Source: a virus (lineage: Duplodnaviria; Caudoviricetes). Taken from it: a stretch of 59,247 nt of DNA. The notes beneath the pieces were generated by a model. It made no database searches, was not told the DNA's origin, and saw nothing but the letters and a program-made list of their open reading frames with translations. Within the stretch, counting starts at the first letter, position 1. Every line of letters begins with the position of its first letter. This document shows positions 1 through 41,300 of the stretch, in pieces. Where the stretch lies: positions 1 to 59,247 of IMG/VR virus record IMGVR_UViG_3300021961_000105. One strand, given 5' to 3'. The translations under genes were made by a program, and so were the position numbers.

Positions 1-1243
1 CAAGTTGAACCCAACCAGGGGTGCCATCAGAAGCGCGACTCTTAGTAAACCAGTCACGCAAAGAACTATCACCACTCTTGTTTTCATCAATAGAATCCTC
101 CTTCACACAATTGGGAACTACTTTCTTTCCCTTCTTTTTCATTCCAAGTTGTTTATATCCGTCCCAACACTTTTCATCTAATTTTGCAGATTCATCATAA
201 ACCTTCTTACCATCTCTGATATAACCAGATCCTTTCTTATCGTAGAAACGGATTCCTTTAGTCATTCTCTCTGTAGCTAATTCATCTTTTCTTTTTTTAG
301 CCGATTGTCTCTTCTCACCTTCTTTCTCTTTCTTTTCTTTTTCCAATTGTTTCTGATCATCAGCACCAGAAACATCTCTGAACCTTCTACCAGTAACTGA
401 AGAAGTGGAGATCATTTCAGATAACTTCTTCTTTTTCTTTTTGGTTTCGTGTGTACCACCACAACCTTCTGCAACCCTTACACTAGGACTCTTCATTATC
501 TTAGTGTTTTTTGCAGACTCTCTTGCTTTTCGTATGGATTCTACACCATGCATCAACTGATTCTTTACATGTGGTGAATATGCATTTACAAGTTTATCAA
601 CATGCCTTTGACTCACGGGCATATCCCTCATCATGGGATTGGGATGATTTTTATGGGAAATAATGTCGCTATAATCAGCACCTTCGCTTACCCCGCCACC
701 ATTTGATTCCGAACCTTCACCATTTCCATTACCATTCTTATTCTCTTCTTCCTCCTCATGTTCCTTATCCTTCATAAGGTAACCACTCTTCATTACGTGC
801 CAACCCTTAGGGATTTTCTTGCACTTCTTATCTGTCATGCACCAGTATTTTCCATCTGGACATGACTTCATTTCTTTGGAGTCTTTCTCTTCCTTAATAT
901 CATGGTGACTCTTTCCACACTTTACGCATGGATCCTGTCCACAATCACAATCGCACTCGGACTTTTTTCCTTCCTTTACCTCCTTCTTCTTCTCAGTATC
1001 ATCTTCGCCACCATCCATGTGATCTGCTACAGTATCAAGATACTCAGATGCCTTAGTAATCTTGGACTGCACCCACGCTTCTAAATCACCTTCACCTTTG
1101 AGATGACGCATCAATCTATTGATTGCTGATTTAGCAGTCTTAAGTTCTCCACGAGCCATAGAAAACTCAAAGTCCTCTCCAAGAGGTGCAATGGTTTCTA
1201 GGTCAGAGAGAATAGACCACTCCTTAAAGGTGAGTTTATCCAT
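1..1243 (-). CDS. Modular, highly charged putative internal head (poly)protein, 3'-truncated by the window edge (>=414 aa)
   Basis: Absent from the ORF track because it has no stop inside the window. Hand translation from ATG at 1243 is open to position 2: MDKLTFKEWSILSDLETIAPLGEDFEFSMARGELK...CDCDCGQDPCVKCGKSHH...CPDGKYWC...KCWDGYKQLGMKKKGKKVVPNCVKE...LRDWFTKSRASDGTPGWVQL. Lies directly downstream of g16, with a late-promoter box upstream. Confidence 0.9.
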   Translation of the reverse strand, partial: MDKLTFKEWSILSDLETIAPLGEDFEFSMARGELKTAKSAINRLMRHLKGEGDLEAWVQSKITKASEYLDTVADHMDGGEDDTEKKKEVKEGKKSECDCDCGQDPCVKCGKSHHDIKEEKDSKEMKSCPDGKYWCMTDKKCKKIPKGWHVMKSGYLMKDKEHEEEEENKNGNGNGEGSESNGGGVSEGADYSDIISHKNHPNPMMRDMPVSQRHVDKLVNAYSPHVKNQLMHGVESIRKARESAKNTKIMKSPSVRVAEGCGGTHETKKKKKKLSEMISTSSVTGRRFRDVSGADDQKQLEKEKKEKEGEKRQSAKKRKDELATERMTKGIRFYDKKGSGYIRDGKKVYDESAKLDEKCWDGYKQLGMKKKGKKVVPNCVKEDSIDENKSGDSSLRDWFTKSRASDGTPGWVQL

Positions 1244-7609: not shown

Positions 7610-8254
7610 CTAAATTATGGATTGTAGAGAATCATTGGTATTTAGTTCTAGACTAATGGACGAATCTCCAAAACCAAACGTTCCGCAAGGCATTATATTA
7701 AAAGCCAAACAGTATCTTGGATCATCAAGGTTATGTCTTCCCATTCTGTGTTTTAAATAACTTGGGAAAAAAATAACCATGTTCTTTTTTGGTTTAAAAT
7801 TCCACCATGGAGAATTGTAAATATTATATTCCGTTGGCTTTGAAGGAGATATTGTTTGGGGAATTAATCCCATACTATCTATTTGAAAATCGCCAGCTTC
7901 TTCGTTATTATCAAAGTTTTGAAAATATAATACTCCAGCATAAAAACAATTTTGATGAGAGTGATATTCTGTCTGACAGTTTTTTAAGGCTTTACTTAAC
8001 CATGAAGTAGTTATATCAAATTTTGTACGCTCATATTTCAATATATCAGTAACAATACAATTAAATTTGTTCATTAACATATCCTTCAATTCAGGATATC
8101 TATTTAAAATTTTTTTATCCCTAGTAACATATAAATTATCAATTTCGCATTTTTGGTAATTTTCATTTTTTAATTGATCAAAAAATAAGTTTCCCTCCAC
8201 CGTAGAAACAAAAACGGCAGAGGGAAACAGAGGGAAAATATCAATGTATGACAT
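7610..8254 (-). CDS. Putative 2OG-Fe(II) oxygenase (TIGR02466-like)
   Basis: ITTSWL, HSHQNCFYAGVLYF, IFFPSYLKHR...RYCLAFN.MP.G.FG. Confidence 0.83.
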   Translation of the reverse strand: MSYIDIFPLFPSAVFVSTVEGNLFFDQLKNENYQKCEIDNLYVTRDKKILNRYPELKDMLMNKFNCIVTDILKYERTKFDITTSWLSKALKNCQTEYHSHQNCFYAGVLYFQNFDNNEEAGDFQIDSMGLIPQTISPSKPTEYNIYNSPWWNFKPKKNMVIFFPSYLKHRMGRHNLDDPRYCLAFNIMPCGTFGFGDSSISLELNTNDSLQSII

Positions 8255-9371: not shown

Positions 9372-9378
9372 TATTTAT
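9372..9378 (-). promoter_or_regulatory. Late promoter box ATAAATA
   Basis: Overlaps the fibre gene stop; followed by SD gaaggag and ATG 9349. Confidence 0.7.
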
Positions 9379-12300
9379 GAATTTTTTAAAGAATCAATTT
9401 CAGCTTTGAGTTCTTTGATAGACTCGATTAACAATCCAATCAAGTTTCCATAAGAAACAGACTTCATTCCATCTTCATTTTCAAATACTGCCTCTGGAAT
9501 AATTGATTCAACTTCTTGAGCAATTAATCCAAGTTTTCTTGATCCATCAGAGATCAAGTTATATTCAACACCACGTAGGTTGCATACTTTATTTAGTGCA
9601 TTTGTAATAGTATCAACATTAGTCTTCAATCTAAGGTCAGAAGTTTCTGTCAGTGTTGTTGCACTTAATGTTGCGAGAACAGTTACGTTGCCTCTGAATG
9701 TTGGCGTTGTGGTCAAACTGTAAGCAGATCCATTACCAATGAGGATTGCACCGTTTGCTGGAACTCCAGTTTGTCCAGTACCACCTCTAGCAATAGGAAT
9801 TGTTCCTGTATGGTTTGCAGAGTTTGTATAGAATGCGGAGTTCTTAGTACCAAGAGTTGAAGCATCAACATCACCTGTTGAAGAATTCTTGATACTTACC
9901 GCACCATCAGCAGCAATTGAGAATGTAGATGTCTTGAACTTCGCAACACCAGTTGTCGAATAAGTATCTAGAGTTTGTGCAACTCTATTTGCAGTAATTT
10001 GAATTGCACCGTAGTGGGTTGCAAATCCAACTCCATAATCGGAACTTGAAGCAGTGATTCCAAATGGTTGTGTAGAACCGATTCCAACACTGGTTACAAC
10101 CTTCTGATAGGAAGAGTTACCATTGAGGAATGTGTCGGAGTTTGCGGGACCAGAACCAAGTCTGGAAGGCGATACAGTACCACTAACGATGTTAGCCGCA
10201 TCAATATCCGCGCTGGCGAGGAGTGACCAGTTATCAGGATCTGTGGATGAAGTATTAACGGTATCCTGGTATCTTACGTTCTGTTTGGTGAATGTAATGC
10301 TTCCAGTTCCAGTTTGGGCAATTCCAACTGCGTTGAATGTAACACCACTTGCAGATGAAGTTGCATCACTCTGGGTGGAGTGGAGTGTAAATCCGTTCTG
10401 AACAACAGAACCAACGTAGTAGAATCCACCAGTATCAATTCCAAGTGGAGTACTTCCGGAAACTCTTACTGGATCACCAGTTGTGTATCCGTGGTTGACG
10501 AAGTGAATCGTGTCCTTAGCGCTGGAAACACCACATCTAATAAATGCGTGTGTTCCGATTCCACTACCAGATAGATCCTGTCTAGAAACTAGTGCATATG
10601 TAGAGTGAAGTTCGACAGAAGAAACACCAACTCTCTTAACATAATATGTGGAATTTTCAATTAGACCAGTAATATTTGTTCCGCCATTTGTTGCATACTT
10701 AACAGCGTCTCCATTCTGGAAGGTATGTCCAACTCCAAGAACAACTCTATCTTCATCGAAGTCAACATCTCCTCCAGTTGCGATAGTAGTTGGATCAATT
10801 TCATACGAAAGATCAAGATCTAGTGTTGTTGTAATTCCAACTGCATTTCCATCAGCGATGTAGTCAGGTAGAGCTGCACTACCAGCAAATTTCTGGTTAT
10901 TTGTCAATGCAAGATATAGTCTTGTTTCAACATCATTAACTTGGACGGTAAATGCTCCGCCTCCAGATCTTCCACCAACATCTCCGTCATTTGCACTTAG
11001 AATATCTCCTCCCTGATAGTATCTACCACCAGTCTTGATATTTACGTTAGTTACGGTTCCAGATCCACCAACAGTAACCTCAGCAAGTGAAGCAGTACCA
11101 AGACCAGTTGTTGATGTTAAGTAACAAGTGTAGATACCTGGTGAAGAATATCCAGAACCACCATTGGTAATTGGAGCTCCTAGTAGAACACCCTTAACAA
11201 GACCTGTTAGACCATAACCAACATATGGAGCGATAGTTGTTCCAATTCCAACGCCTTGTGGAGGTGCAGTAACAACACCAATTGCACTTGCGGCTAGAGC
11301 ACTGACTACTGTATTTCCATTAGAGAACGCATAATCTCTGCTATCGTCGTCAAGGATCAAATACTGACTTACAACGTCCTGAACAAGTACGTAGGATAGT
11401 TCTGGTTCAACGATTGTGTCACCGTTGAGAATGTTAATTGCTGGAATTTCGTTAACGAGAACAGTTCTACCAGTAGAAACATTTGTTTTTGTGTAATTAA
11501 CGACCTTTGGTGGAATCAAGTCAGCATTAATTTGACCAGAAGAGTTCAACTGAACAACAGCATTTGGAACTGCGTTCTGTGATACGGTCTTATCAATGAA
11601 GGTTCCAAGTCTGTTAGACATGAAACTTCTGACAGCCAACTGGGTGGAAACTCTCTTATTGAGTGGTCCACCAAGTTCTCCTTCACCAAGGTTAGTATCA
11701 GTTGAGAATTCTTCAACAGCAACACCACCAGATAGAGATAGACGGATGGAATCCAGTTCTCCAATGGATACCTTGTTGTTAAAGACAATATTACCAGTTC
11801 TGTTGTATGCGGTAATTTGATCACCGATCTTGAAGTCACCAAGTTCGTTAGTACCAGAAGCATAAACACGACCACCAAGTTCGGAAACCTGCTCTGCGGT
11901 TGGATCTCCCTTACCACCATTCTGTGGTAGAGCGTTGTAATCAGTACCAGAACCAGCGAATTCCCAGGTGTGTGAGGAAGAGTTAACGATGGATGGTCTA
12001 TGTAAATGACATCTGTACTGAACTGGTAGGGCACCAATACCCTGGATTACGTTTCCAGTTTCAGTAGAATCTACTTTAAATTCGATCGTTCTGAAACTTG
12101 TAATTCCAGAAACTTCAGTAACTCCAACAGCAATTTGTGGGTCATTGTGGTCAACAATATTTCCACCAGTAGTAGAGAAGAAATATCTAGAACCACCAAC
12201 TTCTTCTACGGAAACAATAAGTTGTCTTGTTGATGAAGTGAAAGTTAGAGCAAAACCAGTAGCAGTTCCACCACTTACAGTTTGTGTAATTTGCTGACCA

Positions 12301-15300
12301 GAATTGAAGACAGCAGTAGAACCAACTCCAGCAAGAGTCAATAACTGATATTGAGAGTGAGAATCAATGATCTCATCAACAATAAATTCTTGGTTGTTCT
12401 TCTGGAAGGTGTTAATACCTGTTGGAGCAGAAGTTAAATCAACAGGTCTTCTTAGAGATTCATCTTCAAATAGTTTGAAGCTTCCAGAGTCAATATACTG
12501 CACATAGTAAGTGTTACCATTAACAAGACCGCCAATTACTACAGGAGGTTCTGCCTGTTCGTTACCAAGATAAACAACACTATCTGTATCAAGGAATGGA
12601 TGACCTGCAATTGAAATTACATCAGTATCCGTGTTAATACCAACTGCTGGGTTTATTACAGCTTCTTGAACAAGTGGCTTAAATAGACTTGTTCTATCTA
12701 CACCCTCGTTATCGAGGAATCTTAGAACGTATAGATCCTGTTCTGTTCTACCAACACCGATAACTCTTAAAGTCTGCAATCCACCAGAAGTACCAGTTGC
12801 AGCAACACGTCCCTTATCGAAAGTGAATGCATTTGGTGAGAATCCAGTTGCCCTTAGAGCAATTGATCCAAAGTTAGTTGCGGAGTTGGTGATGGATAGA
12901 TAACCACCAGACTGTGAGAGTGAACCATAACGACAGAAGATTTGGAAGCAAGAAACAACCTGTGCATAACCATCGTTAATTGTTCTCCAACCAATACCAT
13001 CAAAGGAGATCATGGTAAAGGTTGCAGCAACCATCGACTTACCAAACTCTGGAATGTCTCCTACTGGAGGATTCTCTGCGAGGAGTTGTACTGCAGGTAC
13101 GTTTGGAGAAATAACCTTGTCACCATCAACAAGGATACCATTACCACCAAGACTGGAAAGGATTGTGCAGTTTTGGATGTATGGTGACTTGAAGATTTGT
13201 GGCTTACTTAGAACTGCTGTTCCTCCAACACCAGCAACATAATAGTGTGGAATATCGGGTTTCTTCTCACCACGAATTGCAAATACAGTTGAAGAAGCAG
13301 CTGAAACAACACCGAAGTCTCTTACTCCACTTTGGTGCTGATCGGGGTAGAACTGAATTTTCTGTACTGTAGGAACTTTCTCAACAGTAGGAACTTTCTT
13401 CGATGTACCACCACTTACATAAGTATGTGCAATTGTAGAAATACCAGAGTTAATTACGAATGTATTTGGATCACTTACGCTGTCTACTAAGAATGTGAAT
13501 CCATAAGGAGAAGTGCCATCTGGGAAAATGGAAGTTGTTACGCCAGCATGTTCTACAGAACATGAGAATTCAAGACCAATGAGAGTTACATAATCACCAG
13601 CTGTGAGTCCGTGAGCACCTGAAGTGACACAAGTTGATACGCCAGTTGACTCAGTATAGAGGAAGTTGGTAACTCCCACTTCGCCATATCCATCATAGGT
13701 ATGTGCAATTGTAGAAATACCAGCATTGAAGGTAAATCCGTTTGTTGTTACACCGGTAATTGTAAATGTATATCCATCTACGTTATATGAGTTGATGGTT
13801 CCATCTGGGAATAGTGTGGTTGTTACTCCAGCATGTGCTACTGCACAAGAGAATGGAAGATCTCTTAGGGTAATCTTATCATTTACTTGATAACCATGAG
13901 TTTCTCTAGTTGTACCAGTACATACACCTGTAGATTCGGTGTATTGGAATGTATTAATACCTAGTTTTTGCCAACCAGTATAAATGTGTGGAATTGTCGA
14001 AATACCACCCTGAATTGTAACTGTCTTAGCAACAGTATTAACACCAATAATTGGGTAAATTGCTCCATAACCTTGATCATCCAATCCATTATATGGGAAG
14101 ATCGTTGTTGTAACACCTGCATGTTCCTCTGAACATGCAAATGGGAAGTTATAGAGGAATAGTTTTTCTCCAATAGTATATTCTCCACCATACTCTGATC
14201 TATCTGGTGAGGAACGGAAGGTGAGAGTAGATACACCAACTACATTATTATATCTAATACTTGCAATACCAGTTTCATCGTAACCACAAGTCCAACCAAG
14301 TCCAGCAAGTCTTACTGTATTTCCTGGATATAATTCATGTTGAGATGCACTGGTAATTGTCGTAACTCCGGTTGCACCATCATAAGTAGCACCAGTAATA
14401 TTAATTACCGCTGTTGCTGCATATCCAGTTCTATCCAAACTTGAGTTGAATGGTTCGTCAAATGAAATTGTATAATTCCAAGTGTGTTGAGGAATCTTTG
14501 TATTTGAATCAATAAAATCGGTAAAAGTTAGTCCAGTAATATAGTTACCGTTTCTTACCTTGAAGAAGTCAACCCCAGCATTTAGTGGTCTTACAACAAC
14601 GTTTCTAAGAGAATCCGCAATAATATTTACGTTATCATAGAGAATAATTGGGTTATCTTCAATATAATCACCAGATTCTACTAGGATTGTTGCACCAGTG
14701 TTAAAGAAGAATCCGAGGTATGATGCAATCTGAGCAGCCTTCTTAATTGTCTTGACAGGCTTAGTTCTTCCATCATTTGCATCATTACCAGTTGCCTGAG
14801 ATACCCTAACAAGAACTTGTGAACCAGATCCACCACCACCTGTTGCAAATCCGATATTTCCTTGACCATCAGTGATCAGAACTTGGCCATCTTGTCCATC
14901 TGCGGTTGGGAATGTTAATCCATTAATAGTTGCAATTCCAACTACTTCAAGATTTTTGAAAGAACCCTTTTCTACGTTGATGTTACTACCATCATTTTGA
15001 ATCCTTTCAATACTTACAGGGGTATTCAAAGGAACATCATATGTACTTACTGAACTATAACCAATCTGAACAGTGTTTGCACTTGTTGTTACAGTTGAAA
15101 TAGAAACTGTTGTTCCAGAGGAAAGTCCTACAGATAATGTGCTTCCAGCTCCAATTACCAAAGCTGGAGTTGTTGGGATAGTTGGATCAGTGAATGATAC
15201 ATCTTTACCTACTGTTAATCCAACACCAAGTACATTAGAAAGTATAACTGCTGCACTATCTGATCTAATTGTACTGATTGAAACTATAGATCCACTGGTT

Positions 15301-16478
15301 ATCTCTGACGCTGGAGCAAAAGATACGCCAATTTCTACAGAATCGACATTCACAGCAATAATTGGAACCAACTCCAGTATTGGACTTCCCCCTGTAGAAA
15401 CAGAAACTGAATTTCCAATAGAAACTCCTGTTGTATCAGTAACAGGTATTAGAGTTGAACCTATACTTACAGTTACTGAAAGTGTATCCTCTAAAAAGAT
15501 AGAATCATATGCAGCTACAGCTATTGTAGTAAATCCTACAACTGGGTTATATGAAACATCTCCATCAAATACTCCCTCTGTAACAGTACTTAAAGAACTT
15601 CCGATAGAAACTCCACCAGTACTAGCAACACCAACAATTGTCGCTCCAATACTTGCTAATGCACTTACTGTGGTATTTAATACAATAGTATTTTCTAAAG
15701 GAAGGTCAGTAACTCCAAATCCAGTAATTGGAACATTTGTAGCTACACCAGCAATGCTGAAGGAGTTTCCAATAGATACTCCATTAGTACTTGCAACAGC
15801 AATGAGTGTAGCTCCAATATTTACATTATTGGATAATGTTGTAGTTGTTCGTGGAGCATTAAATGGTGTAGAAACTATACTAGATCCAAAGCTAACAATT
15901 CTAGCAGCACTAATAAATGTTCCAATACTTACAAAATCACCAGTTTGTACGGAAGTAGTATCCGCTACAGCGAAAACAGTATTTCCAACACCAGAAAGTT
16001 GCGTTACGAATGTATCAAGAGTAAACGTAGTAACTCCATGACCAGTTACATTTAGTCTATTAAATGTAGCTGTTGTTCCATGAGTTGTAGTTACTGTCGA
16101 AATGCCAGTTACTAATTGATTTCCATTTACAATTAATCCAGTATTTCCATAACCAATTTTAACATCCCACGAAGGCATGTCTGTGGATGAATCCGTGGTA
16201 ATACCTGCGAACGTCGCTATACCAGCAACATTGAAATTACCAGTAAGTCCAGTTTGATAATCAGGATCTGTATTAAATCCTACCTGTAATGTCTCTGGAA
16301 ACTCGGCTTTTCTGACGTTAGCAAAATCTTTTCTCGCTAACTCAATTCCACCAACAGTACTCCCATCATGAGCTAGTAGAGTCTTTTTGTCGGTATCATA
16401 AGTAATCTCTCCAATTGCCCCAGTAAAAACGGTGTGCTGGGCGGTAGTACCCCTTCTTATCTGTACCTGCTTAGTCAT
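9375..16478 (-). CDS. Long tail fibre/spike protein: Mtd_N-like N-terminus, pectin-lyase-like beta-helix, nested beta-domains, C-terminal peptidase S74 intramolecular chaperone
   Basis: MTKQVQIRRGTTAQH..FTGA.GEITYDTD...HDG.T.GG N-terminus; GNDANDG...PVKTIKKA...ESGDYIEDNP beta-helix cap; SDLRLK...GLIAQEVE...SVSYGNLIGLLIESIKEL at 9375-9641. Confidence 0.88.
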   Translation of the reverse strand: MTKQVQIRRGTTAQHTVFTGAIGEITYDTDKKTLLAHDGSTVGGIELARKDFANVRKAEFPETLQVGFNTDPDYQTGLTGNFNVAGIATFAGITTDSSTDMPSWDVKIGYGNTGLIVNGNQLVTGISTVTTTHGTTATFNRLNVTGHGVTTFTLDTFVTQLSGVGNTVFAVADTTSVQTGDFVSIGTFISAARIVSFGSSIVSTPFNAPRTTTTLSNNVNIGATLIAVASTNGVSIGNSFSIAGVATNVPITGFGVTDLPLENTIVLNTTVSALASIGATIVGVASTGGVSIGSSLSTVTEGVFDGDVSYNPVVGFTTIAVAAYDSIFLEDTLSVTVSIGSTLIPVTDTTGVSIGNSVSVSTGGSPILELVPIIAVNVDSVEIGVSFAPASEITSGSIVSISTIRSDSAAVILSNVLGVGLTVGKDVSFTDPTIPTTPALVIGAGSTLSVGLSSGTTVSISTVTTSANTVQIGYSSVSTYDVPLNTPVSIERIQNDGSNINVEKGSFKNLEVVGIATINGLTFPTADGQDGQVLITDGQGNIGFATGGGGSGSQVLVRVSQATGNDANDGRTKPVKTIKKAAQIASYLGFFFNTGATILVESGDYIEDNPIILYDNVNIIADSLRNVVVRPLNAGVDFFKVRNGNYITGLTFTDFIDSNTKIPQHTWNYTISFDEPFNSSLDRTGYAATAVINITGATYDGATGVTTITSASQHELYPGNTVRLAGLGWTCGYDETGIASIRYNNVVGVSTLTFRSSPDRSEYGGEYTIGEKLFLYNFPFACSEEHAGVTTTIFPYNGLDDQGYGAIYPIIGVNTVAKTVTIQGGISTIPHIYTGWQKLGINTFQYTESTGVCTGTTRETHGYQVNDKITLRDLPFSCAVAHAGVTTTLFPDGTINSYNVDGYTFTITGVTTNGFTFNAGISTIAHTYDGYGEVGVTNFLYTESTGVSTCVTSGAHGLTAGDYVTLIGLEFSCSVEHAGVTTSIFPDGTSPYGFTFLVDSVSDPNTFVINSGISTIAHTYVSGGTSKKVPTVEKVPTVQKIQFYPDQHQSGVRDFGVVSAASSTVFAIRGEKKPDIPHYYVAGVGGTAVLSKPQIFKSPYIQNCTILSSLGGNGILVDGDKVISPNVPAVQLLAENPPVGDIPEFGKSMVAATFTMISFDGIGWRTINDGYAQVVSCFQIFCRYGSLSQSGGYLSITNSATNFGSIALRATGFSPNAFTFDKGRVAATGTSGGLQTLRVIGVGRTEQDLYVLRFLDNEGVDRTSLFKPLVQEAVINPAVGINTDTDVISIAGHPFLDTDSVVYLGNEQAEPPVVIGGLVNGNTYYVQYIDSGSFKLFEDESLRRPVDLTSAPTGINTFQKNNQEFIVDEIIDSHSQYQLLTLAGVGSTAVFNSGQQITQTVSGGTATGFALTFTSSTRQLIVSVEEVGGSRYFFSTTGGNIVDHNDPQIAVGVTEVSGITSFRTIEFKVDSTETGNVIQGIGALPVQYRCHLHRPSIVNSSSHTWEFAGSGTDYNALPQNGGKGDPTAEQVSELGGRVYASGTNELGDFKIGDQITAYNRTGNIVFNNKVSIGELDSIRLSLSGGVAVEEFSTDTNLGEGELGGPLNKRVSTQLAVRSFMSNRLGTFIDKTVSQNAVPNAVVQLNSSGQINADLIPPKVVNYTKTNVSTGRTVLVNEIPAINILNGDTIVEPELSYVLVQDVVSQYLILDDDSRDYAFSNGNTVVSALAASAIGVVTAPPQGVGIGTTIAPYVGYGLTGLVKGVLLGAPITNGGSGYSSPGIYTCYLTSTTGLGTASLAEVTVGGSGTVTNVNIKTGGRYYQGGDILSANDGDVGGRSGGGAFTVQVNDVETRLYLALTNNQKFAGSAALPDYIADGNAVGITTTLDLDLSYEIDPTTIATGGDVDFDEDRVVLGVGHTFQNGDAVKYATNGGTNITGLIENSTYYVKRVGVSSVELHSTYALVSRQDLSGSGIGTHAFIRCGVSSAKDTIHFVNHGYTTGDPVRVSGSTPLGIDTGGFYYVGSVVQNGFTLHSTQSDATSSASGVTFNAVGIAQTGTGSITFTKQNVRYQDTVNTSSTDPDNWSLLASADIDAANIVSGTVSPSRLGSGPANSDTFLNGNSSYQKVVTSVGIGSTQPFGITASSSDYGVGFATHYGAIQITANRVAQTLDTYSTTGVAKFKTSTFSIAADGAVSIKNSSTGDVDASTLGTKNSAFYTNSANHTGTIPIARGGTGQTGVPANGAILIGNGSAYSLTTTPTFRGNVTVLATLSATTLTETSDLRLKTNVDTITNALNKVCNLRGVEYNLISDGSRKLGLIAQEVESIIPEAVFENEDGMKSVSYGNLIGLLIESIKELKAEIDSLKNS
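13208..14408 (-). repeat. Four related ~90-aa beta-domains (C..HAGVTTTIFPDG...GISTIxHxY), nested
   Basis: Three complete repeats plus one split outer repeat in the translation; the same module occurs in gp7 at 37927-38808. Confidence 0.8.
15001..16010 (-). repeat. Four Thr/Ser/Val-rich repeats (IGAT.I.VAST.GVSIG), N-halves followed by C-halves
   Basis: Visible in the translation of the 2367-aa fibre. Confidence 0.7.
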
Positions 16479-33696: not shown

Positions 33697-35292
33697 TTAA
33701 AACTCCAATACAATTTTAATGTCTTCTTTTTGGTTGGCAGATCTCGGAATAGGTTGTCTATTATCCAAGTAAATAACATCCCCAGATTTTTTCTCATACT
33801 CAGCGGTAGAAATTCCAGATACGAAATCTTGTCCTAACTGGTATATTCTATTATTTATTGTCGTAGTGACACCACTAAAACCTGTGTTAATTTGCAATGT
33901 TGGACCGATTATGGAAGAACAATTGATTGTTACTCCATATCCAACGTCTGGAGTTGAAGTAAATGGAATAATTTTAAATCCAGTTTCACTTGAAGCTAGT
34001 CCTGTTGGTTGATAATATTTTAATACTCCAGTTATTGGATCCCAGGATGCAACATATCCAATAGCAGTTGATCCTAAACCTACAGTCTGTTTGATTACCG
34101 AATCAACACCATAAGTTGTATTTGTAGTAACACCAGCTAATTTCAGAGCATTCAATCCACTTACAACTGATGCATCTAAAAGTTGGACGTTACTTCCCAC
34201 CACTGTTGGATTTTTTAATATTCCAACCCTAGCAAAATCATTACCCAAAATAATATCTGGATTACTTTCCAATGTTTCATATCTGGAATACAACAATACT
34301 CTATATGCACCAAGTTCCCTATAAACATCATAGCCATGGCCACCTTTTGGTGGAATGATAACATTAAAGGATGATATGGAAGTAGTTCCAATTCCAGTAT
34401 TACTTAACTGACTTAATGGACCATTAATATCAGATCCTGGAGCTCCTGGATAGAATTCTACAGTTCCATAAGTATAACCCTTACCCCCATCCGTGACAAA
34501 AACTTCAGATACTTTACCAAAAGAATCAATTGTAATAGTGGCCTTTCCCCCAGTTCCATCACCAAGAATCGGAACATTTGAGAACGACGTAGAAATTGGC
34601 TGATAATTTGAACCTCTATTATTAATCAGAACAACTTCTATCTTTCCATCAACAGCGTTATTTTTTGTTGCAATCGATTCTCCAGAATCTCCCCAACTAT
34701 CTGGAACTGGAATATATTCAATAGAATCAAATTTTACAATCTCAGATGGTTTAATAGTATACAAGTACTTCCAAATATATCCATCACCACTAGCACCAGC
34801 AGCTCTTGCCTCTAAATCAATAAAAGTTGGTTGGTCAAAAGACGGTCTTCCTTTAGGATTTTCTGGGTCTGTTCCATTCTGCAAACAAATATAAACTCTC
34901 AGATCTTCATTTATGACATAATAATTTGCTTCATAAAGTCCGGTCTGTGAAGTAACTGGAGTTACATTAAAAACATTATAGTCATGTCTATACATTTCAT
35001 AAGTATTTCCTGCAACCCAGTTTACTTTTCTAACTAATCTCCGTACATCTTGACTTGTTATTTGTTTCAGAGATATAATACTTTCTTTAACTTGATACTC
35101 CTCTCTAAATCCATCCACTGGAGATGGAGTATTAGAGGACCACGTTGGTGATCCACCAGCAGCTGGTTGGTTGCTGTTCGGAAGTCCAATAAAAGTATAA
35201 TACCTATTTGATGTGTCACCTACTCCAGAAACACTTTTTACAAAGTTTTCTGCATTTAAAATTCTAAATTGGTCGGATATTATAGCGGGCAT
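33697..35292 (-). CDS. g8: Baseplate wedge subunit gp8
   Basis: MPAIISDQFRILNA, W..G.TYEMY.HDY, YYVIN...VY.CL.NG, DGYIWKYLYT, PPKGGHG.D, Y.DNR..I.R...QKEDIKIVLEF. Confidence 0.9.
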   Translation of the reverse strand: MPAIISDQFRILNAENFVKSVSGVGDTSNRYYTFIGLPNSNQPAAGGSPTWSSNTPSPVDGFREEYQVKESIISLKQITSQDVRRLVRKVNWVAGNTYEMYRHDYNVFNVTPVTSQTGLYEANYYVINEDLRVYICLQNGTDPENPKGRPSFDQPTFIDLEARAAGASGDGYIWKYLYTIKPSEIVKFDSIEYIPVPDSWGDSGESIATKNNAVDGKIEVVLINNRGSNYQPISTSFSNVPILGDGTGGKATITIDSFGKVSEVFVTDGGKGYTYGTVEFYPGAPGSDINGPLSQLSNTGIGTTSISSFNVIIPPKGGHGYDVYRELGAYRVLLYSRYETLESNPDIILGNDFARVGILKNPTVVGSNVQLLDASVVSGLNALKLAGVTTNTTYGVDSVIKQTVGLGSTAIGYVASWDPITGVLKYYQPTGLASSETGFKIIPFTSTPDVGYGVTINCSSIIGPTLQINTGFSGVTTTINNRIYQLGQDFVSGISTAEYEKKSGDVIYLDNRQPIPRSANQKEDIKIVLEF

Positions 35293-35325: not shown

Positions 35326-38300
35326 TTATTGACTAACCACATTTCTTGTTCTCATAATCTTAGGAGATGTGGATAATCCTGTAAGTCCATTGTCGGTAAA
35401 GACATCAAAAGTTTTTGGATTTCCTAAAATTCTATTTTGGTAATCATAAATTTTAGCCCAACTATATCTTCCATAATATCCATTTGTATTAATTCCAGTT
35501 TCATTTTCACCTCTAGAATAGACTTTGACATAGTTATCTACCATAGGAGCAAAGTTACATGTCACAGTAACTATACCAATAGAAGGTGTGGTGACATCTT
35601 CTACTCTATAAACACCATCTATGAATTGTGTAGCAACTCCAATAACGGAATCTGGGTAACTGGCCATTCCCCCAAGTAATGTAGATATTCCGATTAGATT
35701 TCCACCAGTTTCAACGTTACTATCTGTAATGACAAAATAATCACCCTTGGACAATTGACTGTTCGTAACTCCTAAAACATTGAGTGATGAATATCCAATA
35801 CCTAGAGTACTATTATCATATTGTTCAGATTTCAAGGTAAAGGAAATTTTTGGAGATGTTGTTCCAATTCCTGGTGTTCCACTTAGATATGTTTGAATGC
35901 CAATAATAGTTCCAAAATCTCCCACAACTTTAAATGATTTAACAGTTTCTGTCTTATAAGTGTCCAATTCCACCAAAGTTGGAGGTGGGTTGGTTGGATC
36001 ATAACCAAATCCTGGATTATCAATTTGGATAGAAGTGACAACTCCAGAAGTAACACTGGAAGTAGCAGTTGCTCTATTAAGAACAGGTTCTGCATATATT
36101 GATGTTGCACCAGCTCCAACAGCTACATATCTACCATCTGATCCAAGATTGTCTACAAAAGCAAAATCATTTAATAAATTGGATTGATTTGTTGATCTGT
36201 AAATCCAATCAGATAAATCGAAGGAATAATATAAATCTCCACTGGAGAGTGTAATAATATAGAATCCATAAGCATAGTGAATATTTGTAATATCGGAAAC
36301 TCCAAGATTGTTTGTAATAATTTCATAGGTATCTCTCGTGAGATTGCGTATAACTTTTCCATTATTGCCAACTGCGACGAACTTCCCATTAGCGTAAATT
36401 ACTTTATTTAAATTGGTGACAACTGGAGAAGATGCAGTTTCCCAAATAAAACCATTATTGGAAGTTCTAATAACACCATCTGCACCAACTGCAACAAAAT
36501 ATTCTGCACCAAATGCAACACTATTAAGATCAGAAAGAGTGGAGGAGAATCTGCTTGTAAATGCGTCAGTAGTAACTCCAGTAGCAACAAATATAGATCC
36601 TGCAGCTCCAACAGCTACCCAACTATCCGTAACACTAGAATATGCAATTTCATTAAATGATCCAGTGTACCCACTACCTACTTGACCAACAACACCAAAA
36701 CCAGGAAGAGCAACATCTTCTTTCAGAGGAATTTGTTCCCAAACTGAAGTAGAAGTATTGTAGTCTGTTGCTTTTACAATTTTTCCAAGACTGCCAACAG
36801 AAACCAATAAATTACTTGTACCGATGCCAACAGATTCAATAGAATTGAAGTCCAAACTTTCAGTTTGGCCAAATCCAACCGTACCTAATTGCCAATTTAT
36901 TCCATCATAACTTGTTGCATAGATAGCACTGGCTCCAACAGAAACAAATCTATCATTAAATTTAACAGATTTTAAATCATAAGTTGTTGTTAATCCAACT
37001 CCACCATTCCAGTTAAAGATAGGATCTTTTTGGGTAATGGAGGTTTCAGAAATTACGACTTTTGGTGATAATGTATTTGCATAACCAATTCCACCATCTA
37101 AAATATTGATAGAAGTAACTGTGGATGAGGAAGAAACTACGGACTCAACAACACATTGTTCAACTGTTTTATTTTCTAGTATCAATAAATCTCTAATATC
37201 TTCAGAGAGATTATCAACATCAGAAAATAGTGGATAAGCGTTATCAACATAAATTGATGTATCATCCGGTTGAATCTTTTTAATTACTGTAGCAAAAGGT
37301 TTAACTCCACTCTGCAAACTTGGTCTAGACTTAGAATAAAGTGTTCCATTGATAACGGTATCGTTAAGTTGTTTTTTCCATGTCAATGGTCTCACTCTTG
37401 TTGGATCAGTAATAATACCAACAGAATAATAATTGAAAGTTTCTAGTTGATCTGAGGTAACAATCTTTTTAACAACTCTATCAAACTGTGAAATATCATA
37501 GGGGTCTAGTGGATTCTCCTGAATGGTAATGTTATCACCTGTTTTAATTGTCTTTGGTGGATCGACCAACTCAACGTCAACTGAAGATCCCCTATAGTAA
37601 AGGATAACACACTTTGATCCAGCTTTTGGAGCCTCAGTGAAAGTTATTCTACTTCCAGAGAATGAATATGATGTACCAGGAACCTGAAGTACGTCATTAA
37701 TGTATATAAAGATGTTATTAGTTATATCTAAATCAGTTCCATCCGGAACTTTAAGTCCTATAACAGTTCTTACGCCATTAAGAGTAGTTGCAAGTGTAAA
37801 CTTCTTCCTAAATCCATTAAAGAATGAAGAAATATCATCGAATTGTATAAACTGACCTGGATAGAAACCAGCAAATGTATCGGTTTGTACCTCTTCAACT
37901 GTCAAAATGAAAGGTTCATATTGTTTGAATGTTACTATTCCACCTTGAGTGTAATAGTGTGGTATTGTTGAAATAGAACCAGCTAGAACAGTAAATTGAT
38001 TAGTAGATCCAATAGAAACTACTCTAAAGTCTCTAGCTCCATCAGTGCTATCATCAGTATATTTTAAAACTCTTTGAACCGTTGGAACTTTCTTGGTATA
38101 TCCACCACCAGTGTAATAATGTACAATAGTGGATATTCCAGCAAGGAATTCAAATTCTGTTGCACTATTAACAGCGGTAACGGTGAAAGTGTAACCATAT
38201 TCGGAGGTTCCATCTGGGAAAATCGTTGTAGTTAGTCCAACATATGCCGAATCACAAGTAAATGCAAGTCCAGCTAGAGTTACCTTATCGCCAACCGCAA

Positions 38301-41300
38301 ACTCATGATTTGCGGATGTTGTTACAGTTGATAATCCAGTAACTTCGTAATATGCAAATGTACTAATTCCAATTTCTGACCAACCTTCAAATACATGAGG
38401 AATAGTTGAAATTCCAGCATTCATAGTGAAACTGGTAGAACTTATAGAAGTTAGAACTGGGAATACTCTTCCATAAGAAGATGTGCCATCTGGGAAGATT
38501 GTTGTTGTAACACCTGCATGTTCTGCAGCACATGAGAAAGGTAAGTTAAATAAGAATACTTCATCACTAGTTTGATTTGCAGGTACATCATCTCGCAATA
38601 ATCCATGAGGAGAATAAGTAACAACTGTACAAATTCCACTAGCCTCATCATAAGAGAAGGTTTGAATACCAACTTCATCATAACCACAAGTAAATGCTAT
38701 GCCAGTGAGAGTTACAAGATCATCTTCACTAAGATTGTGAACAGAATCTGTAGTAATAGTAGTGACTCCGGTTATGTTATTATATAAAACGTTAGAAATA
38801 TTTAAAGAATCATATCTAATTGAGGTATCCGTGTATATTCCCACTGGAGTAAGTTTATCTCCAAGTTTGTATCCAATACCTGGGCGATCAAATTTAAAGT
38901 TTATGACACTGGATCCCATACCGATCTGAACAGAAAGTCTTGCATCCTGACCAACACCAGAAGATCCATCAGCGTAATCAAGTGATAGAGCACTATATCC
39001 AGTAGGCAAACCAATTACTGCGACTGGTAGGGAAGTTGTTGTGTATCCACTTCCAGCATTTACAACAGTATATCCTGTGATTGTTCCACCAGCACCGACA
39101 GAAGCGGTAATACTAGCACCAGTTCCAATAGTGGATGCAATGCTTACTACTGGAGCACTTCTATAACCAGAACCACCACCAGTAACAACAACATCACTAA
39201 TTGTTCCAGCAGCAGAAACAACTACAGTAGCCGCGGCACCAAGTAATGGTATGTAACCAAAACTGGTAGAAATGGAGACTTTCGATATTCTTCCAGCGTT
39301 TGGAGTACCACTTAAGAACCTCAGAACGTTTGTTCCACTACCATCTACAGTATAATCGACAGATGGGTTTTGGAAAACATTGTTGATTAGAACTATTGGA
39401 TTGTTACTAATTTCTGTTGCACTATTAACATCGTTGAAAACTGTGTCTGTTGTCTGGCCATTAGATTTTAAAGTAAATTCTGTCGCTGCAATACCAGTGA
39501 ATGACAACGATATATCATCGAATAGAATGTTCTTGTCCTCTGGAACACCAGCATCAAATCTTCTACTAAATGCTCTACCACCAAATATAGATCCGGTTTC
39601 TAATCCAACAGGACCTATTTGACCATATGGAGCAGTATCAAAATAAATTACATCACCAACAATATTGAAGCTACCGTTTAATACTGTAGCCGCAACACCA
39701 ACAGTATGTGCAGTTGAAACTGTTCCAAAGTAACCTCTCTCAACTTCCACATGATTTTCTGAAGAAACTCCAATCTTTTTGATTGAAACAAGTTCATTAT
39801 CAAGATTAATAATGTCACGAACATTTAATGAAGAAATTCCAGAAGAAACACTCAATATGTTTGTAGAAGCCGTAGAAACACTTGATGCAAGAACAACTTC
39901 AAGAGATTTTCTTGAGAGTGGTTTTTGTATTACTCCATCAATTGTTATTATTACACTAGCATTAGGATCTTTGTATTCTAGAGAATGTGTTGCAGTACCA
40001 ACACCAGTAAGATTCAAGAAAACACTGGTTGACAATCCAGCGAGTTTGAATTGATTATCATTTAGTTTAAATACGAAAAGATTAGATGGCAAAGAATCTG
40101 TGCCAAGTTCAAGTGGTCTGAAAGATAAATCATCATTTGATCCAGACCCACCGATATAAGTACCAGCAATTGAAATCACTGAATTGGAATCATATCCAGA
40201 TCCACCATTTAAAACATCGACAGAAGCAATTTCCCCATCATTATTTCTAAACACATTGAAAGTGGCTCCAGTTGCATCCGAAGAAGGAACTTCCAAATAA
40301 CTTTGATTTGCTTCTGCATCCAGTACTGTTGGACCTGTTGCGGAAACAACAAAACTCAAGTCATTTGTTGGAGTCGTTCCTCCCATGTATGTACCTGCGA
40401 TAGACACAGTTTCTCCAATCGAATATCCACTTCCACCCTTGATTAGAGTTATAGATGTTGAAAGTGGTTGTCCAGTAGATACACTATAAGTAATTGTAAC
40501 AGTGAATTCTGCATCAGTTCCTGTTGTTCCATTACCGACAGTTTGAACATACTGTTTGAAAGACGGTCCTACAGGAGACAGTACTGTAGATACACCTGTT
40601 ATAGAAGTTGTTAATGCGGATGTATATCCATTTTCAAGTATTGCAGTCCCATCAAACTCATGAACGTTCAATAGACTATCAACAGTTCCCGAAACATATG
40701 AAGTAGTTGCAATTCCAATAGGACTTCCATTTGTGTAAGAGTATATTAATTCTTGACCGGACTGGAAATTGTGGTTAAGAATAGTAAATGTATCTGTTGC
40801 AACATCAACACTAGAACCAGTAAATTCATGTTTGAATAGAGAAATTCCTTTATTTTTTAACTTAAAGGTACTCAATCCAACTACGGAACCACCTCTCGTT
40901 AATGATGGGAATGTTAAATCTGGTGCAAAATTTGTACCCAATCCAATAATTGTGGTTATAATTCCAACATAGTTACCGAGAGAAGCTCTGACATCTGCAC
41001 AATCTGCAGTTCCATAGAATTCTGTTGGAATACCGGCAAGACTACTATTTCCTACAGCAACCGTTAGAATTCCAACCAAGGTATCAATATTAGTTTGAAC
41101 ATCAGCACATGAAGATGGATCAGTATTAAATCCTGTAAGTGGGTCTGCTGTAATTGTAAGGTCCTTGGAATACAGTTGGTTTGTAACCGCCTGTTTCATG
41201 TATCCTTTTGCACTTTCAAATGCATAAATTGATTCAGATTCTTCGCCAATAAGTCCATCTGTTCTGGCAACCCCAGCACCATCAAAATACTTTTTAGTGT

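What the first reader, a model, noticed from the sequence alone, without database searches (positions are those of the whole stretch)
13208..14408. Matryoshka (nested) domain architecture with a countable closing motif
Seen: the outer domain begins (YDGATGVTTITSASQHEL..TVRLAGLGWTC) and is interrupted. Three repeats follow, the first two lacking their last strand, and then ...HTYVSGGTSKK-VPTVEK-VPTVQK-IQFYPD...RDFGV...PHYY completes the outer domain. The gp7 copy has two inner repeats and only one VPTVQR before VLKYTD...RDFRV...PHYY. In both proteins the number of VPTVx(K/R) closers equals the number of inner repeats minus one, as expected if each domain is inserted into the previous one. Inference: a length-tunable, rigid out-and-back stalk built by recursive domain insertion.
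Basis: partly seen in the sequence, partly recalled or inferred. Interest (0 to 1): 0.76.

Follow-up and report, generated by a model that had tools for sequence, protein, structure and literature searches.

The report
Self-nested beta-barrel domains in cyanophage fibre
A tail-fibre protein and a giant baseplate protein of a T4-like cyanophage carry small beta-barrel domains inserted inside one another like Russian dolls, with short return strands that close the earlier domains, and relatives nest the same domain at least eight deep.

Summary
In the 2367-aa fibre ORF (9375..16478, minus strand), a ~92-aa domain is split after its conserved Cys. Three further copies sit in the gap, followed by VPTVEK, VPTVQK and the outer C-half. 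The 4902-aa gp7-like ORF has two inner copies and one VPTVQR.

Non-terminal inner copies end at HxY and lack the GGTxxK last strand. In 59 of 59 complete homologous modules (35 sequence classes), the return segment is 14, 20 or 26 residues long. That is 0, 1 or 2 six-residue closers, always inner copies minus one, whatever the insert length (106-927 aa).

Two AlphaFold2 models (pLDDT 70.8 and 66.3) make the closers strands. Structural-alignment ranges place the last closer with the first repeat and the first closer with the second, which is last-in-first-out order.

The fold resembles the E1 FCCH barrel and the endosialidase sialic-acid-binding barrel.

Family-wide, half-domains form balanced bracket patterns, up to seven N-halves followed by seven C-halves. 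Recursive insertion is known from cyanobacterial RNA polymerase Si3. I found no description of this phage family or of its closer mode. Rigidity and function are untested.

The parts
14271..14411 (-). Copy 1 (fibre ORF): N-half of the outer barrel domain, ending in the conserved Cys and the GYDET exit linker
   Evidence: Profile positions 3-50, E 6.6e-13. In the AF2 model it joins residues 381-433 to form one barrel: VIA range 27..433, 81 residues aligned at rmsd 1.8 to 4hiz_A.
13971..14270 (-). Copy 1 inner repeat 1. It ends HIYTGW and has no GGTxxK last strand.
   Evidence: Full-length profile hit, E 1.8e-18; alignment. VIA ranges 67-74..380-383 in 17 of 50 rows and 3 of 50 rows.
13686..13970 (-). 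Copy 1 inner repeat 2. It ends HTYDGY and has no last strand.
   Evidence: Profile hit E 1.3e-27. VIA range 176..376 in 1 row, 9jlf_E, 78 residues aligned at rmsd 2.3.
13395..13685 (-). Copy 1 inner repeat 3, the complete innermost domain with its own last strand (GGTSKK)
   Evidence: Profile hit E 4.6e-34. VIA ranges 269-272..369-372; UBA6/UBA1 FCCH Z 9.2-10.3.
13377..13394 (-). Closer 1 (VPTVEK), proposed last strand of repeat 2
   Evidence: Strand E371-374 in the model; block pLDDT 82-85. One VIA row ends at 376. Count rule.
13359..13376 (-). Closer 2 (VPTVQK), proposed last strand of repeat 1. It runs on into the first strand of the outer C-half.
   Evidence: Continuous strand E377-384. 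Repeat-1 VIA rows end at 380-383. 15 of 18 bases are identical to closer 1.
13200..13358 (-). Copy 1: C-half of the outer barrel (IQFYPD...RDFGV...PHYY...GGTAVLSKP), then back into the beta-helix-like fibre body
   Evidence: Aligns by eye with the repeat C-half. Weak profile hit. Part of the 27..433 barrel in the model.
38671..38811 (-). Copy 2 (gp7-like ORF): outer N-half ending FTC-GYDEV
   Evidence: Profile positions 2-51, E 3.5e-14.
38380..38670 (-). Copy 2 inner repeat 1 (ends HVFEGW, no last strand)
   Evidence: Profile hit E 5.4e-29; alignment.
38089..38379 (-). Copy 2 inner repeat 2, complete (ends HYYTGGGYTKK)
   Evidence: Profile hit E 6.2e-33.
38071..38088 (-). Copy 2 single closer (VPTVQR)
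   Evidence: Tail length 20 with n=2.
37921..38070 (-). Copy 2 outer C-half (VLKYTD...RDFRV...PHYYTQGG)
   Evidence: Profile positions 56-90, E 4.1e-4; 2.3e-5 with the half-domain profile.
9375..16478 (-). Host gene 1: 2367-aa tail-fibre protein
   Evidence: Pfam Mtd_N (residues 5-41) and Peptidase_S74 (2280-2331). PHROG tail-fibre families.
35326..50034 (-). Host gene 2: 4902-aa gp7-like baseplate wedge protein
   Evidence: PHROG 2885/438 baseplate wedge. Pfam YHYH, and Baseplate_wedge below threshold. Flanked by a phrog_219 baseplate wedge gene and a phrog_438 baseplate wedge gene; the T4 names gp6 and gp8 for these are my recollection.

Best explanation
The module is a four-level self-nested array of one small (~92-aa) eight-stranded beta-barrel domain. 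The domain is related in fold to the E1 FCCH barrel and to the sialic-acid-binding barrel of phage endosialidases.

Shown by sequence:
- The outer copy is split in the loop after its conserved Cys, and everything else sits in that loop.
- The inner copies follow head to tail.
- Every inner copy except the last stops after strand 7 (HxY) and runs straight into strand 1 of the next copy.

Inferred from the models and the count rule:
- After the last, complete copy, the chain turns back.
- On the way back it lays one six-residue strand (V-P-T-x-x-K/R) onto each earlier copy as its missing strand 8, in reverse order.
- It then continues without a break into the C-half of the outer domain.

Topologically, repeat 3 is therefore inserted before the last strand of repeat 2. 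Repeats 2 and 3 are inserted before the last strand of repeat 1. All three are inserted into the outer domain.

The same domain family also nests through the mid-domain Cys loop. That produces runs of N-halves followed by equal runs of C-halves, up to 7 plus an intact core.

Inferred function: an out-and-back projection from the fibre or baseplate surface. Its length and number of (probably glycan-binding) barrels change quickly between related phages.
For: Sequence:
- Repeats and the split outer copy.
- Only terminal repeats carry GGxxKK.

Count rule:
- The closer count equals repeats minus one in 59 of 59 complete modules (35 sequence classes).
- The rule holds in two protein contexts: fibre with n=1, 2, 3 and gp7-like with n=2, 3.
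- The tail length is quantised at 14, 20 or 26 residues while the insert length ranges from 106 to 927 aa.
- The n=1 relative P0012 has GGTVQK directly before the outer C-half. This matches the idea that closers are displaced last strands.

Model 1 (16-row alignment, pLDDT 70.8, pTM 0.64):
- Strands 365-368, 371-374 and 377-384, with block pLDDT 77-85.
- VIA-align wide, 50 rows: 16 rows span 12-31..433-441 (outer barrel, e.g. 4hiz_A, Z 8.8, rmsd 1.8, 81 aligned). 17 rows span 67-74..380-383 (repeat 1 plus closer 2). 13 rows span 263-272..369-386 (repeat 3). 1 row spans 176..376 (repeat 2 plus closer 1).
- repeats this: 3 rows for repeat 1 and 4 rows for the outer barrel.

Model 2, an independent gp7-type module from L098 (24 rows, pLDDT 66.3). 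VIA ranges, read against the half-domain map:
- 18 rows for the intact inner domain (431-439..539-541).
- 21 rows for the innermost level-3 domain (163-175..290-293).
- 4 rows spanning 389-391..589, a domain split by an inserted domain.
- 68..597 and 90..589 for the first top-level repeat plus closer.
- 22..650 for the outer domain.

Natural variants:
- L007 differs from L001-L006 by exactly one full domain inserted after the Cys of repeat 3.
- L100 has one more nesting level than L098.

Family-wide bracket patterns include P0052 NNNFCCC, P0065 NNFCC, P0026 NNNFCCNFCC, and P0016 with 7 N-halves followed by 7 C-halves.
Against: - Both models have only moderate confidence and come from shallow alignments. 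In model 2 only 7 rows cover the nested core.
- No coordinates or contact maps were available. Pairing is inferred from the first and last aligned residues of structural alignments.
- Repeat 2 plus closer 1 rests on a single row. Level 2 of model 2 never appeared in the 50 rows.
- The two closers of copy 1 are much more alike (5 of 6 residues, 15 of 18 bases) than repeats 1 and 2 are to repeat 3 (37% and 54%). This fits a local 18-base duplication better than inheritance of two old last strands. The evolutionary route may therefore differ from the structural description.
- The fibre probably assembles as a trimer and was modelled as a monomer.
- Automatic bracket parsing of the 150 database proteins is noisy. 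Only 26 of 115 proteins with half-domains parse as perfectly balanced. Many of these are fragments, and divergent halves are missed.
Confidence: 0.75

Rival explanations
1. This is ordinary single-level insertion. Three tandem complete-enough domains sit in one loop of the outer domain. The VPTVxK units are only a spacer whose length must grow with the number of domains so that the chain can reach back. They do not become part of the earlier barrels.
For: The inner repeats match the profile almost end to end (positions 2-92) without the closers. The two closers look like a recent 18-base tandem duplication. A spacer model would also predict a length that scales with the repeat number.
Against: The increment is exactly six residues in 59 of 59 modules, with a conserved V-P-T-x-x-K/R pattern that resembles the GGTxxK last strand. 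The models make the closers strands at pLDDT about 80. Repeat-1 structural alignments extend to residues 380-383 in 17+3 rows. The closer number tracks only the strand-less repeats, not the total number of domains or the insert length.
Confidence: 0.12
2. The closers complete barrels of a neighbouring subunit. In the assembled, probably trimeric fibre the return strands are swapped between chains, so the nesting seen in a monomer model is an artefact of modelling one chain.
For: The fibre ends in a Peptidase_S74 intramolecular chaperone domain, which is typical of trimeric fibres (established knowledge). Only monomers were modelled.
Against: The same module with the same count rule occurs in the gp7-like baseplate protein. 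In T4 that protein is a single-copy wedge component (recalled, not tested). The short two-residue connections between successive closers, and the direct run of closer 2 into the outer C-half, favour an in-chain return path.
Confidence: 0.08
3. N-halves and C-halves are two independent small repeat types that merely occur in runs. The apparent nesting is a by-product of profile matching.
For: Random orderings of equal numbers of two tokens are well-formed bracket strings fairly often: 1 in 9 for 8+8 by the Catalan count (my arithmetic). Many database proteins parse as unbalanced.
Against: Intact domains are one N-half directly followed by one C-half. In both models, halves 300-600 residues apart assemble into one barrel that superposes on solved barrels (27..433 at rmsd 1.8; 389..589; 22..650). 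Run lengths match: 7/7 in P0016, 3/3 in P0052, 2/2 in P0065. The L007 and L100 variants add whole domains or matched half pairs.
Confidence: 0.03

Closest known systems
Si3 insertion of cyanobacterial RNA polymerase beta' (nested sandwich-barrel hybrid motifs)
   Same: One small beta domain is inserted recursively into copies of itself, giving discontinuous domains and an elongated out-and-back body. Passages of PMC13114784 describe a 6-level recursive architecture. Passages of PMC10895346 state that SBHM-2 to -5 contain elements from distant parts of the chain.
   Different: The fold and family differ. 8emb_B appears only as a weak Foldseek row (probability 0.11). It is a cellular enzyme, not a virion protein. 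No six-residue 'closer' mode is described in the passages I read. The phage family reaches at least 7 split levels plus a core and varies between close relatives.
Beta-barrel domain of phage endosialidases (K1F endoNF 3ju4 residues 422-510; phi92 4hiz residues 254-342)
   Same: Same barrel fold: Z 8.6-8.9, rmsd 1.8-2.0 over 81 residues. Both are carried by a phage fibre or spike that ends in a Peptidase_S74 chaperone domain. The K1F barrel holds a sialic-acid site and is a host-discrimination hot spot (passages of 10.1101/2025.10.06.680778).
   Different: Only 15-18% identity, and no sequence-level match to any PDB chain (best E 0.46). Endosialidases carry one barrel, not a nest. The binding residues were not compared.
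E1 ubiquitin-activating enzyme FCCH domain (Pfam PF16190)
   Same: Best structural match: UBA6/UBA1, Z 9.2-10.3, rmsd 1.9-2.2, 77-84 aligned, 18-26% identity. A sub-threshold Pfam hit in 4 of 16 repeat sequences, best E 4.1e-4. The nearest named ESM-Atlas cluster is a viral E1_FCCH cluster (score 0.93). FCCH is itself an inserted domain in E1 (established knowledge).
   Different: Below Pfam's gathering score (20.8 against 29.5 bits). No link to ubiquitin-like chemistry. No nesting in E1.
Periplasmic adaptor proteins (AcrA/MexA type) - recalled, not tested here
   Same: An out-and-back chain in which each domain is completed by the returning polypeptide, giving an elongated rod.
   Different: Those domains are of different folds, not copies of one domain. 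There is no variation in copy number.

Membership tests
Pfam PF16190 E1_FCCH | Profile score at or above the curated gathering score (29.5 bits) | tested here: not met
   Best score 20.8 bits, E 4.1e-4. 4 of 16 repeat sequences give any hit at E<=1. The full-length proteins give no hit at E<=0.01.
Pfam PF16190 E1_FCCH | FCCH beta-barrel fold | tested here: met
   7sol_A Z 10.3, rmsd 1.9, 77 aligned. 65 of 995 chains have Z>=8, mostly E1 enzymes. This rests on a predicted model.
Endosialidase beta-barrel (sialic-acid-binding) domain | Fold superposition on the solved barrel | tested here: met
   4hiz_A/B Z 8.8-8.9, rmsd 1.8, 81 aligned. 3ju4 Z 8.6.
Endosialidase beta-barrel (sialic-acid-binding) domain | Detectable sequence homology | tested here: not met
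   Profile of 16 repeats against all PDB sequences: best E 0.46, to unrelated proteins.
Endosialidase beta-barrel (sialic-acid-binding) domain | Conserved sialic-acid-binding residues / glycan binding | not tested
   No residue-level superposition was available and there is no assay.
Recursive (nested) self-insertion architecture, as in RNAP Si3 | Discontinuous domains whose halves flank complete copies of the same domain, in last-in-first-out order | tested here: met
   Half-domain profiles. Model ranges 27..433, 389..589 and 22..650.
Recursive (nested) self-insertion architecture, as in RNAP Si3 | SBHM fold | tested here: inconclusive
   Only a weak Foldseek row for 8emb_B (E 2.1e-3, probability 0.11). 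It is absent from the VIA lists, which do not exclude it.
PHROG 3442 / 17885 / 1276 (cyanophage structural proteins) | Profile match | tested here: met
   P0001: phrog_3442 E 1.6e-45, phrog_17885 E 9.2e-37, phrog_1276 E 2.5e-16. These families carry no description of the domain.

The most novel reading that the evidence does not exclude
T4-like cyanophages carry a dedicated 'self-inserting' barrel domain, and it forms the deepest natural domain nests I know of. It reaches at least 8 levels, against the 6 reported as the extreme in a 2.7-million-domain survey.

The domain has at least three permissive insertion sites: after the Cys, inside the C-half, and before the last strand.

Nests grow and shrink between closely related phages by matched duplications of half-domains plus linker. 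This gives a modular way to change the reach and valency of glycan-binding barrels on fibres and baseplates, and so to change host range.
Probability: 0.45. Interest if true: 0.85.

Novelty: new variant of a known kind. Interest (0 to 1): 0.72.

Why it matters
Recursive domain insertion has so far been a curiosity known mainly from one cellular enzyme. Here the same principle appears in abundant marine virus particles, in a different fold. It shows a simple, countable sequence rule (six residues of return strand per unfinished barrel) and rapid variation between relatives.

- Structural biology and protein design: natural, length-programmable rigid-looking rods built from one module, and a test case for how discontinuous domains fold.
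- Phage biology: it marks a hypervariable surface module in the fibre and baseplate of cyanophages that infect Synechococcus and Prochlorococcus, and so a candidate determinant of adsorption.
- Annotation: it explains why these giant ORFs have no Pfam domain here. It also shows that 'half repeats' in them are not degenerate copies.

Tried and rejected
- Foldseek against the PDB with the whole 460-residue model gave only meaningless multi-domain matches (TM 0.07-0.17). Domain-level VIA-align was used instead.
- The search for homologous proteins with P0001 returned only 19 proteins of 253-805 aa. They were not used further.
- The search for related loci with P0052, the cleanest NNNFCCC protein, found no relative in viral contigs. 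The deep-nest model was therefore made from L098 instead.
- The 16-row repeat alignment A3 was too diverse for a pattern scan (an error). A 4-row alignment A4 was used.
- The first automated count flagged 9 of 28 classes as mismatches. These came from my loosened regular expression, which started the match one residue early or at an inner site, and from a parsing failure in the P0005 type. The anchored re-analysis replaced it.
- A bracket-balance statistic over all 150 database proteins was abandoned as uninformative, because of fragments, missed divergent halves and a weak null.
- Literature: searches found no paper describing this phage domain or its nesting. Supplements were closed and subscription journals are not covered, so prior description cannot be excluded.
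Full report
**Context**

All large ORFs of the window lie on the minus strand. They form the baseplate and fibre module of a T4-like cyanomyovirus. In order they include:
- a phrog_219 baseplate wedge protein (50036..51910; gp6 in T4 terms, as I recall);
- a 4902-aa gp7-like protein (35326..50034);
- a phrog_438 baseplate wedge protein (33697..35292; gp8 in T4 terms, as I recall);
- further giant structural proteins;
- a 2367-aa fibre (9375..16478) with an Mtd_N domain at its start and a Peptidase_S74 chaperone domain at its end.

A tblastn search of the region against 50,697 phage records matched 83 records. Their organism names begin with Synechococcus (73), Marine (5), Prochlorococcus (4) or Cyanophage (1), and every named host is a Synechococcus-type cyanobacterium.

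**The observation**

The finding covers residues ~691-1091 of the fibre. The second copy is in the gp7-like ORF.

Aligning the five inner repeats and the outer halves shows one ~92-aa unit. Its features, in order, are:
- a first strand ending in Y;
- T-G-x-x-T;
- H-G-L-like;
- G-D-x-V-x-L;
- F-x-C;
- a loop;
- G-V-T-T-x-I-F-P-D-G;
- G-I-S-T-I-x-H-x-Y.

The outer copy stops after the Cys (WTC-GYDET). It resumes about 300 residues later with IQFYPD...PHYY. A profile of the unit finds the outer N-half as positions 3-50 (E 6.6e-13) and the inner copies as full-length hits (E 1e-18 to 1e-34).

Only the last inner copy of each protein continues after HxY with GG(T/Y)xKK. The others go straight from HxY-x-G-(W/Y) into the first strand of the next copy.

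The two closers of copy 1 differ at 3 of 18 bases.

**The family**

A full HMMER scan of 1.84 billion representative proteins found 163 relatives at E<=1e-3. A pattern scan of IMG/VR found at least 494 encoding stretches. Pfam has no model above threshold.

I classified profile hits as N-half, C-half or full. This gave architectures that read as brackets:
- P0052: NNNFCCC
- P0065: NNFCC
- P0026: NNNFCCNFCC
- P0003: NNNNNNNFCCNFCFFFCCFCFCC (8 N, 8 C)

P0016 has seven N-halves separated by 7-8-residue linkers, then an inner cluster, then seven C-halves separated by 6-7-residue linkers.

The automatic parse is noisy. Only 26 of 115 proteins with half-domains come out perfectly balanced. Many of these are contig fragments, and divergent halves are missed; the window's own outer C-half is one example.

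Close relatives differ by whole units at the same site:
- L007 has one extra full domain after the Cys of repeat 3, compared with L001-L006.
- L100 has one more level than L098. It is made of a near-copy of an N-half with its linker and a near-copy of a C-half with its linker.
- The gp7-type site shows at least eight different architectures among the fetched contigs.
- Insertions also occur inside the C-half (L040, L080) and elsewhere (P0005 repeat 2).

**The closer rule**

I anchored on the conserved flanks and measured the segment from the last HxYxxGG to the outer Y(P/T)(D/E).
- Of 67 outer domains of the C-G-Y-D-E type, 59 were complete. The other 8 were truncated or had no anchor.
- The segment is 14 residues in 2 cases, 20 in 35 and 26 in 22. 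No other length occurs.
- (length - 14)/6 equals the number of top-level inner repeats minus one in 59 of 59 cases, when repeats are counted as strand-less junctions plus one.
- It does so in 55 of 59 by bracket parsing. The four exceptions (L034, L013, L014, P0005) have missed half hits and are n=3 by eye.
- The 59 fall into 35 sequence classes. Several loci are the same contig fetched from two collections.
- Both protein contexts contain n=2 and n=3. The fibre context also has n=1 (P0012/L039), where GGTVQK directly precedes the outer C-half.
- Insert length (106-927 aa) and total domain number do not predict the tail. A 535-aa insert with six domains has one closer, because it has only two top-level repeats.

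Relatives whose inner copies each keep their own GGxxxx strand (P0034, NFFFC) have no closers.

**Structure prediction, window copy 1**

This model used a 16-row alignment and gave mean pLDDT 70.8 and pTM 0.64.

Each copy shows seven strands. Repeat 3 has an eighth (365-368). The closers are strands 371-374 and 377-384, with block pLDDT 77-85. The second closer strand is continuous with the first strand of the outer C-half.

I could not read coordinates, so I used the first and last aligned residues of domain-level structural alignments. In the PDB-wide VIA-align list (50 rows):
- 16 rows span 12-31..433-441. This is the outer barrel rebuilt from halves 300 residues apart, for example the phi92 endosialidase barrel (Z 8.8, rmsd 1.8, 81 aligned).
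- 17 rows span 67-74..380-383, with 68-90 aligned residues. This is repeat 1 plus closer 2.
- 13 rows span 263-272..369-386. This is repeat 3.
- 1 row spans 176..376. This is repeat 2 plus closer 1.
- 3 rows are not assignable.

The second-look list agrees: repeat 1 at 72-74..380-381 in 3 rows, and the outer barrel at 27..433 in 4 rows.

It is well supported within the model for repeat 1 and thinly supported for repeat 2.

**Structure prediction, an independent gp7-type module**

This model covers L098:301-2316 (672 aa). It used a 24-row alignment, of which only 7 rows cover the nested core. It gave pLDDT 66.3 and pTM 0.47.

The expected map comes:
- outer 29-69 / 601-649;
- repeat 1 = 73-120 / 344-387, enclosing level 2 (129-168 / 288-343) and level 3 (179-287);
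- repeat 2 = 394-433 / 538-588, enclosing an intact domain (442-537);
- closer at 589-594.

The 50 VIA rows give:
- 18 rows at 431-439..539-541 (the intact inner domain);
- 21 rows at 163-175..290-293 (level 3);
- 4 rows at 389-391..589 with 71-75 aligned (repeat 2, skipping its insert);
- 68..597 and 90..589 (repeat 1 with or up to the closer);
- 22..650 (outer domain);
- 4 unassignable rows.

Level 2 did not appear in any row.

**Fold and likely function**

The best structural matches are:
- the FCCH barrel of ubiquitin E1 enzymes (Z 9.2-10.3, rmsd about 2, 18-26% identity);
- the barrel of endosialidases NF and phi92 (Z 8.3-8.9).

A sub-threshold Pfam E1_FCCH hit appears in 4 of 16 repeats, with best E 4.1e-4. 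The nearest named ESM-Atlas cluster is a viral E1_FCCH cluster. No PDB chain matches by sequence.

In K1F endosialidase, the barrel holds a sialic-acid site and is a host-discrimination hot spot (passages of 10.1101/2025.10.06.680778). By analogy only, the cyanophage barrels may bind host surface glycans. No binding residue was compared.

**Comparison with what is known**

Recursive insertion of one domain into itself is documented for the Si3 insertion of cyanobacterial RNA polymerase.
- A 2026 survey of 2.7 million classified domains names its six-level nesting as the complex extreme (abstract and passages of PMC13114784).
- The crystal-structure paper states that SBHM-2 to -5 are built from distant parts of the chain (passages of PMC10895346).

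The phage family differs in four ways: the fold, the host molecule, the depth (at least 7 split levels plus a core), and the terminal-strand closer mode with its six-residue rule.

My searches for a description of the phage family found none. Supplements and subscription journals were not covered.

**Verdict**

What remains inferred:
- the actual hydrogen-bond pairing;
- the stiffness and shape of the array;
- whether the closers descend from displaced last strands or from a local duplication;
- the function.

Noticed in passing
L098:301-2316 versus L100:301-2853 (gp7-type module): One extra nesting level in L100 is made of a near-identical copy of an N-half with its YVQNPIVN linker and a near-identical copy of a C-half with its SGGTAQ linker. 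This suggests that levels are added by matched duplications on both sides, or by inserting a domain copy into itself.
   Followed up: partly
L040:4495-9702, L080:1-9534, P0005 residues 979-1176: Full domains are also inserted at sites other than the Cys loop. One site is after the FP..G(I/T)(E/Q)(Y/W)G stretch of the C-half. Another is after the first strands of the C-half in P0005 repeat 2. The barrel therefore tolerates at least three insertion points.
   Followed up: no
window 13395-14270 and 38089-38670 (all repeats): Across 16 diverse repeats, the invariant residues are one Tyr, one Phe, one Thr, one Pro, three Gly, and the single Cys and the His of HxY. One Cys plus one His per barrel may hint at a metal site or an inter-domain contact. 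This was not examined.
   Followed up: no
window 16361-16475 (fibre residues 5-41): The fibre starts with an Mtd_N domain (Pfam PF18454, E 9.4e-13). This is the N-terminal domain of the Bordetella phage major tropism determinant, an unusual head for a cyanophage fibre.
   Followed up: no
window 35326-50034, residues 1218-1319: The gp7-like giant protein contains a YHYH domain (PF14240, E 1.3e-21), in addition to the nested module.
   Followed up: no
window 16522-23373: A 2283-aa ORF is built of many degenerate repeats of the type ...PFG..(I/L)SGSA... . It has only one weak PHROG match of unknown function (phrog_11522). It is a second highly repetitive structural protein, next to the fibre.
   Followed up: no
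window 6382-7560 and 7610-8254: An ORF combines ferrochelatase-like and 2OG-Fe(II) oxygenase matches (phrog_2954 and phrog_61). It is followed by a second 2OG-Fe(II) oxygenase ORF. These are auxiliary metabolic genes directly downstream of the fibre module.
   Followed up: no
L008:2501-3875: In one otherwise close relative (82% identity), the reading frame through repeats 2-3 is interrupted, so the open frame is split. This could be a sequencing error or a broken fibre gene.
   Followed up: no
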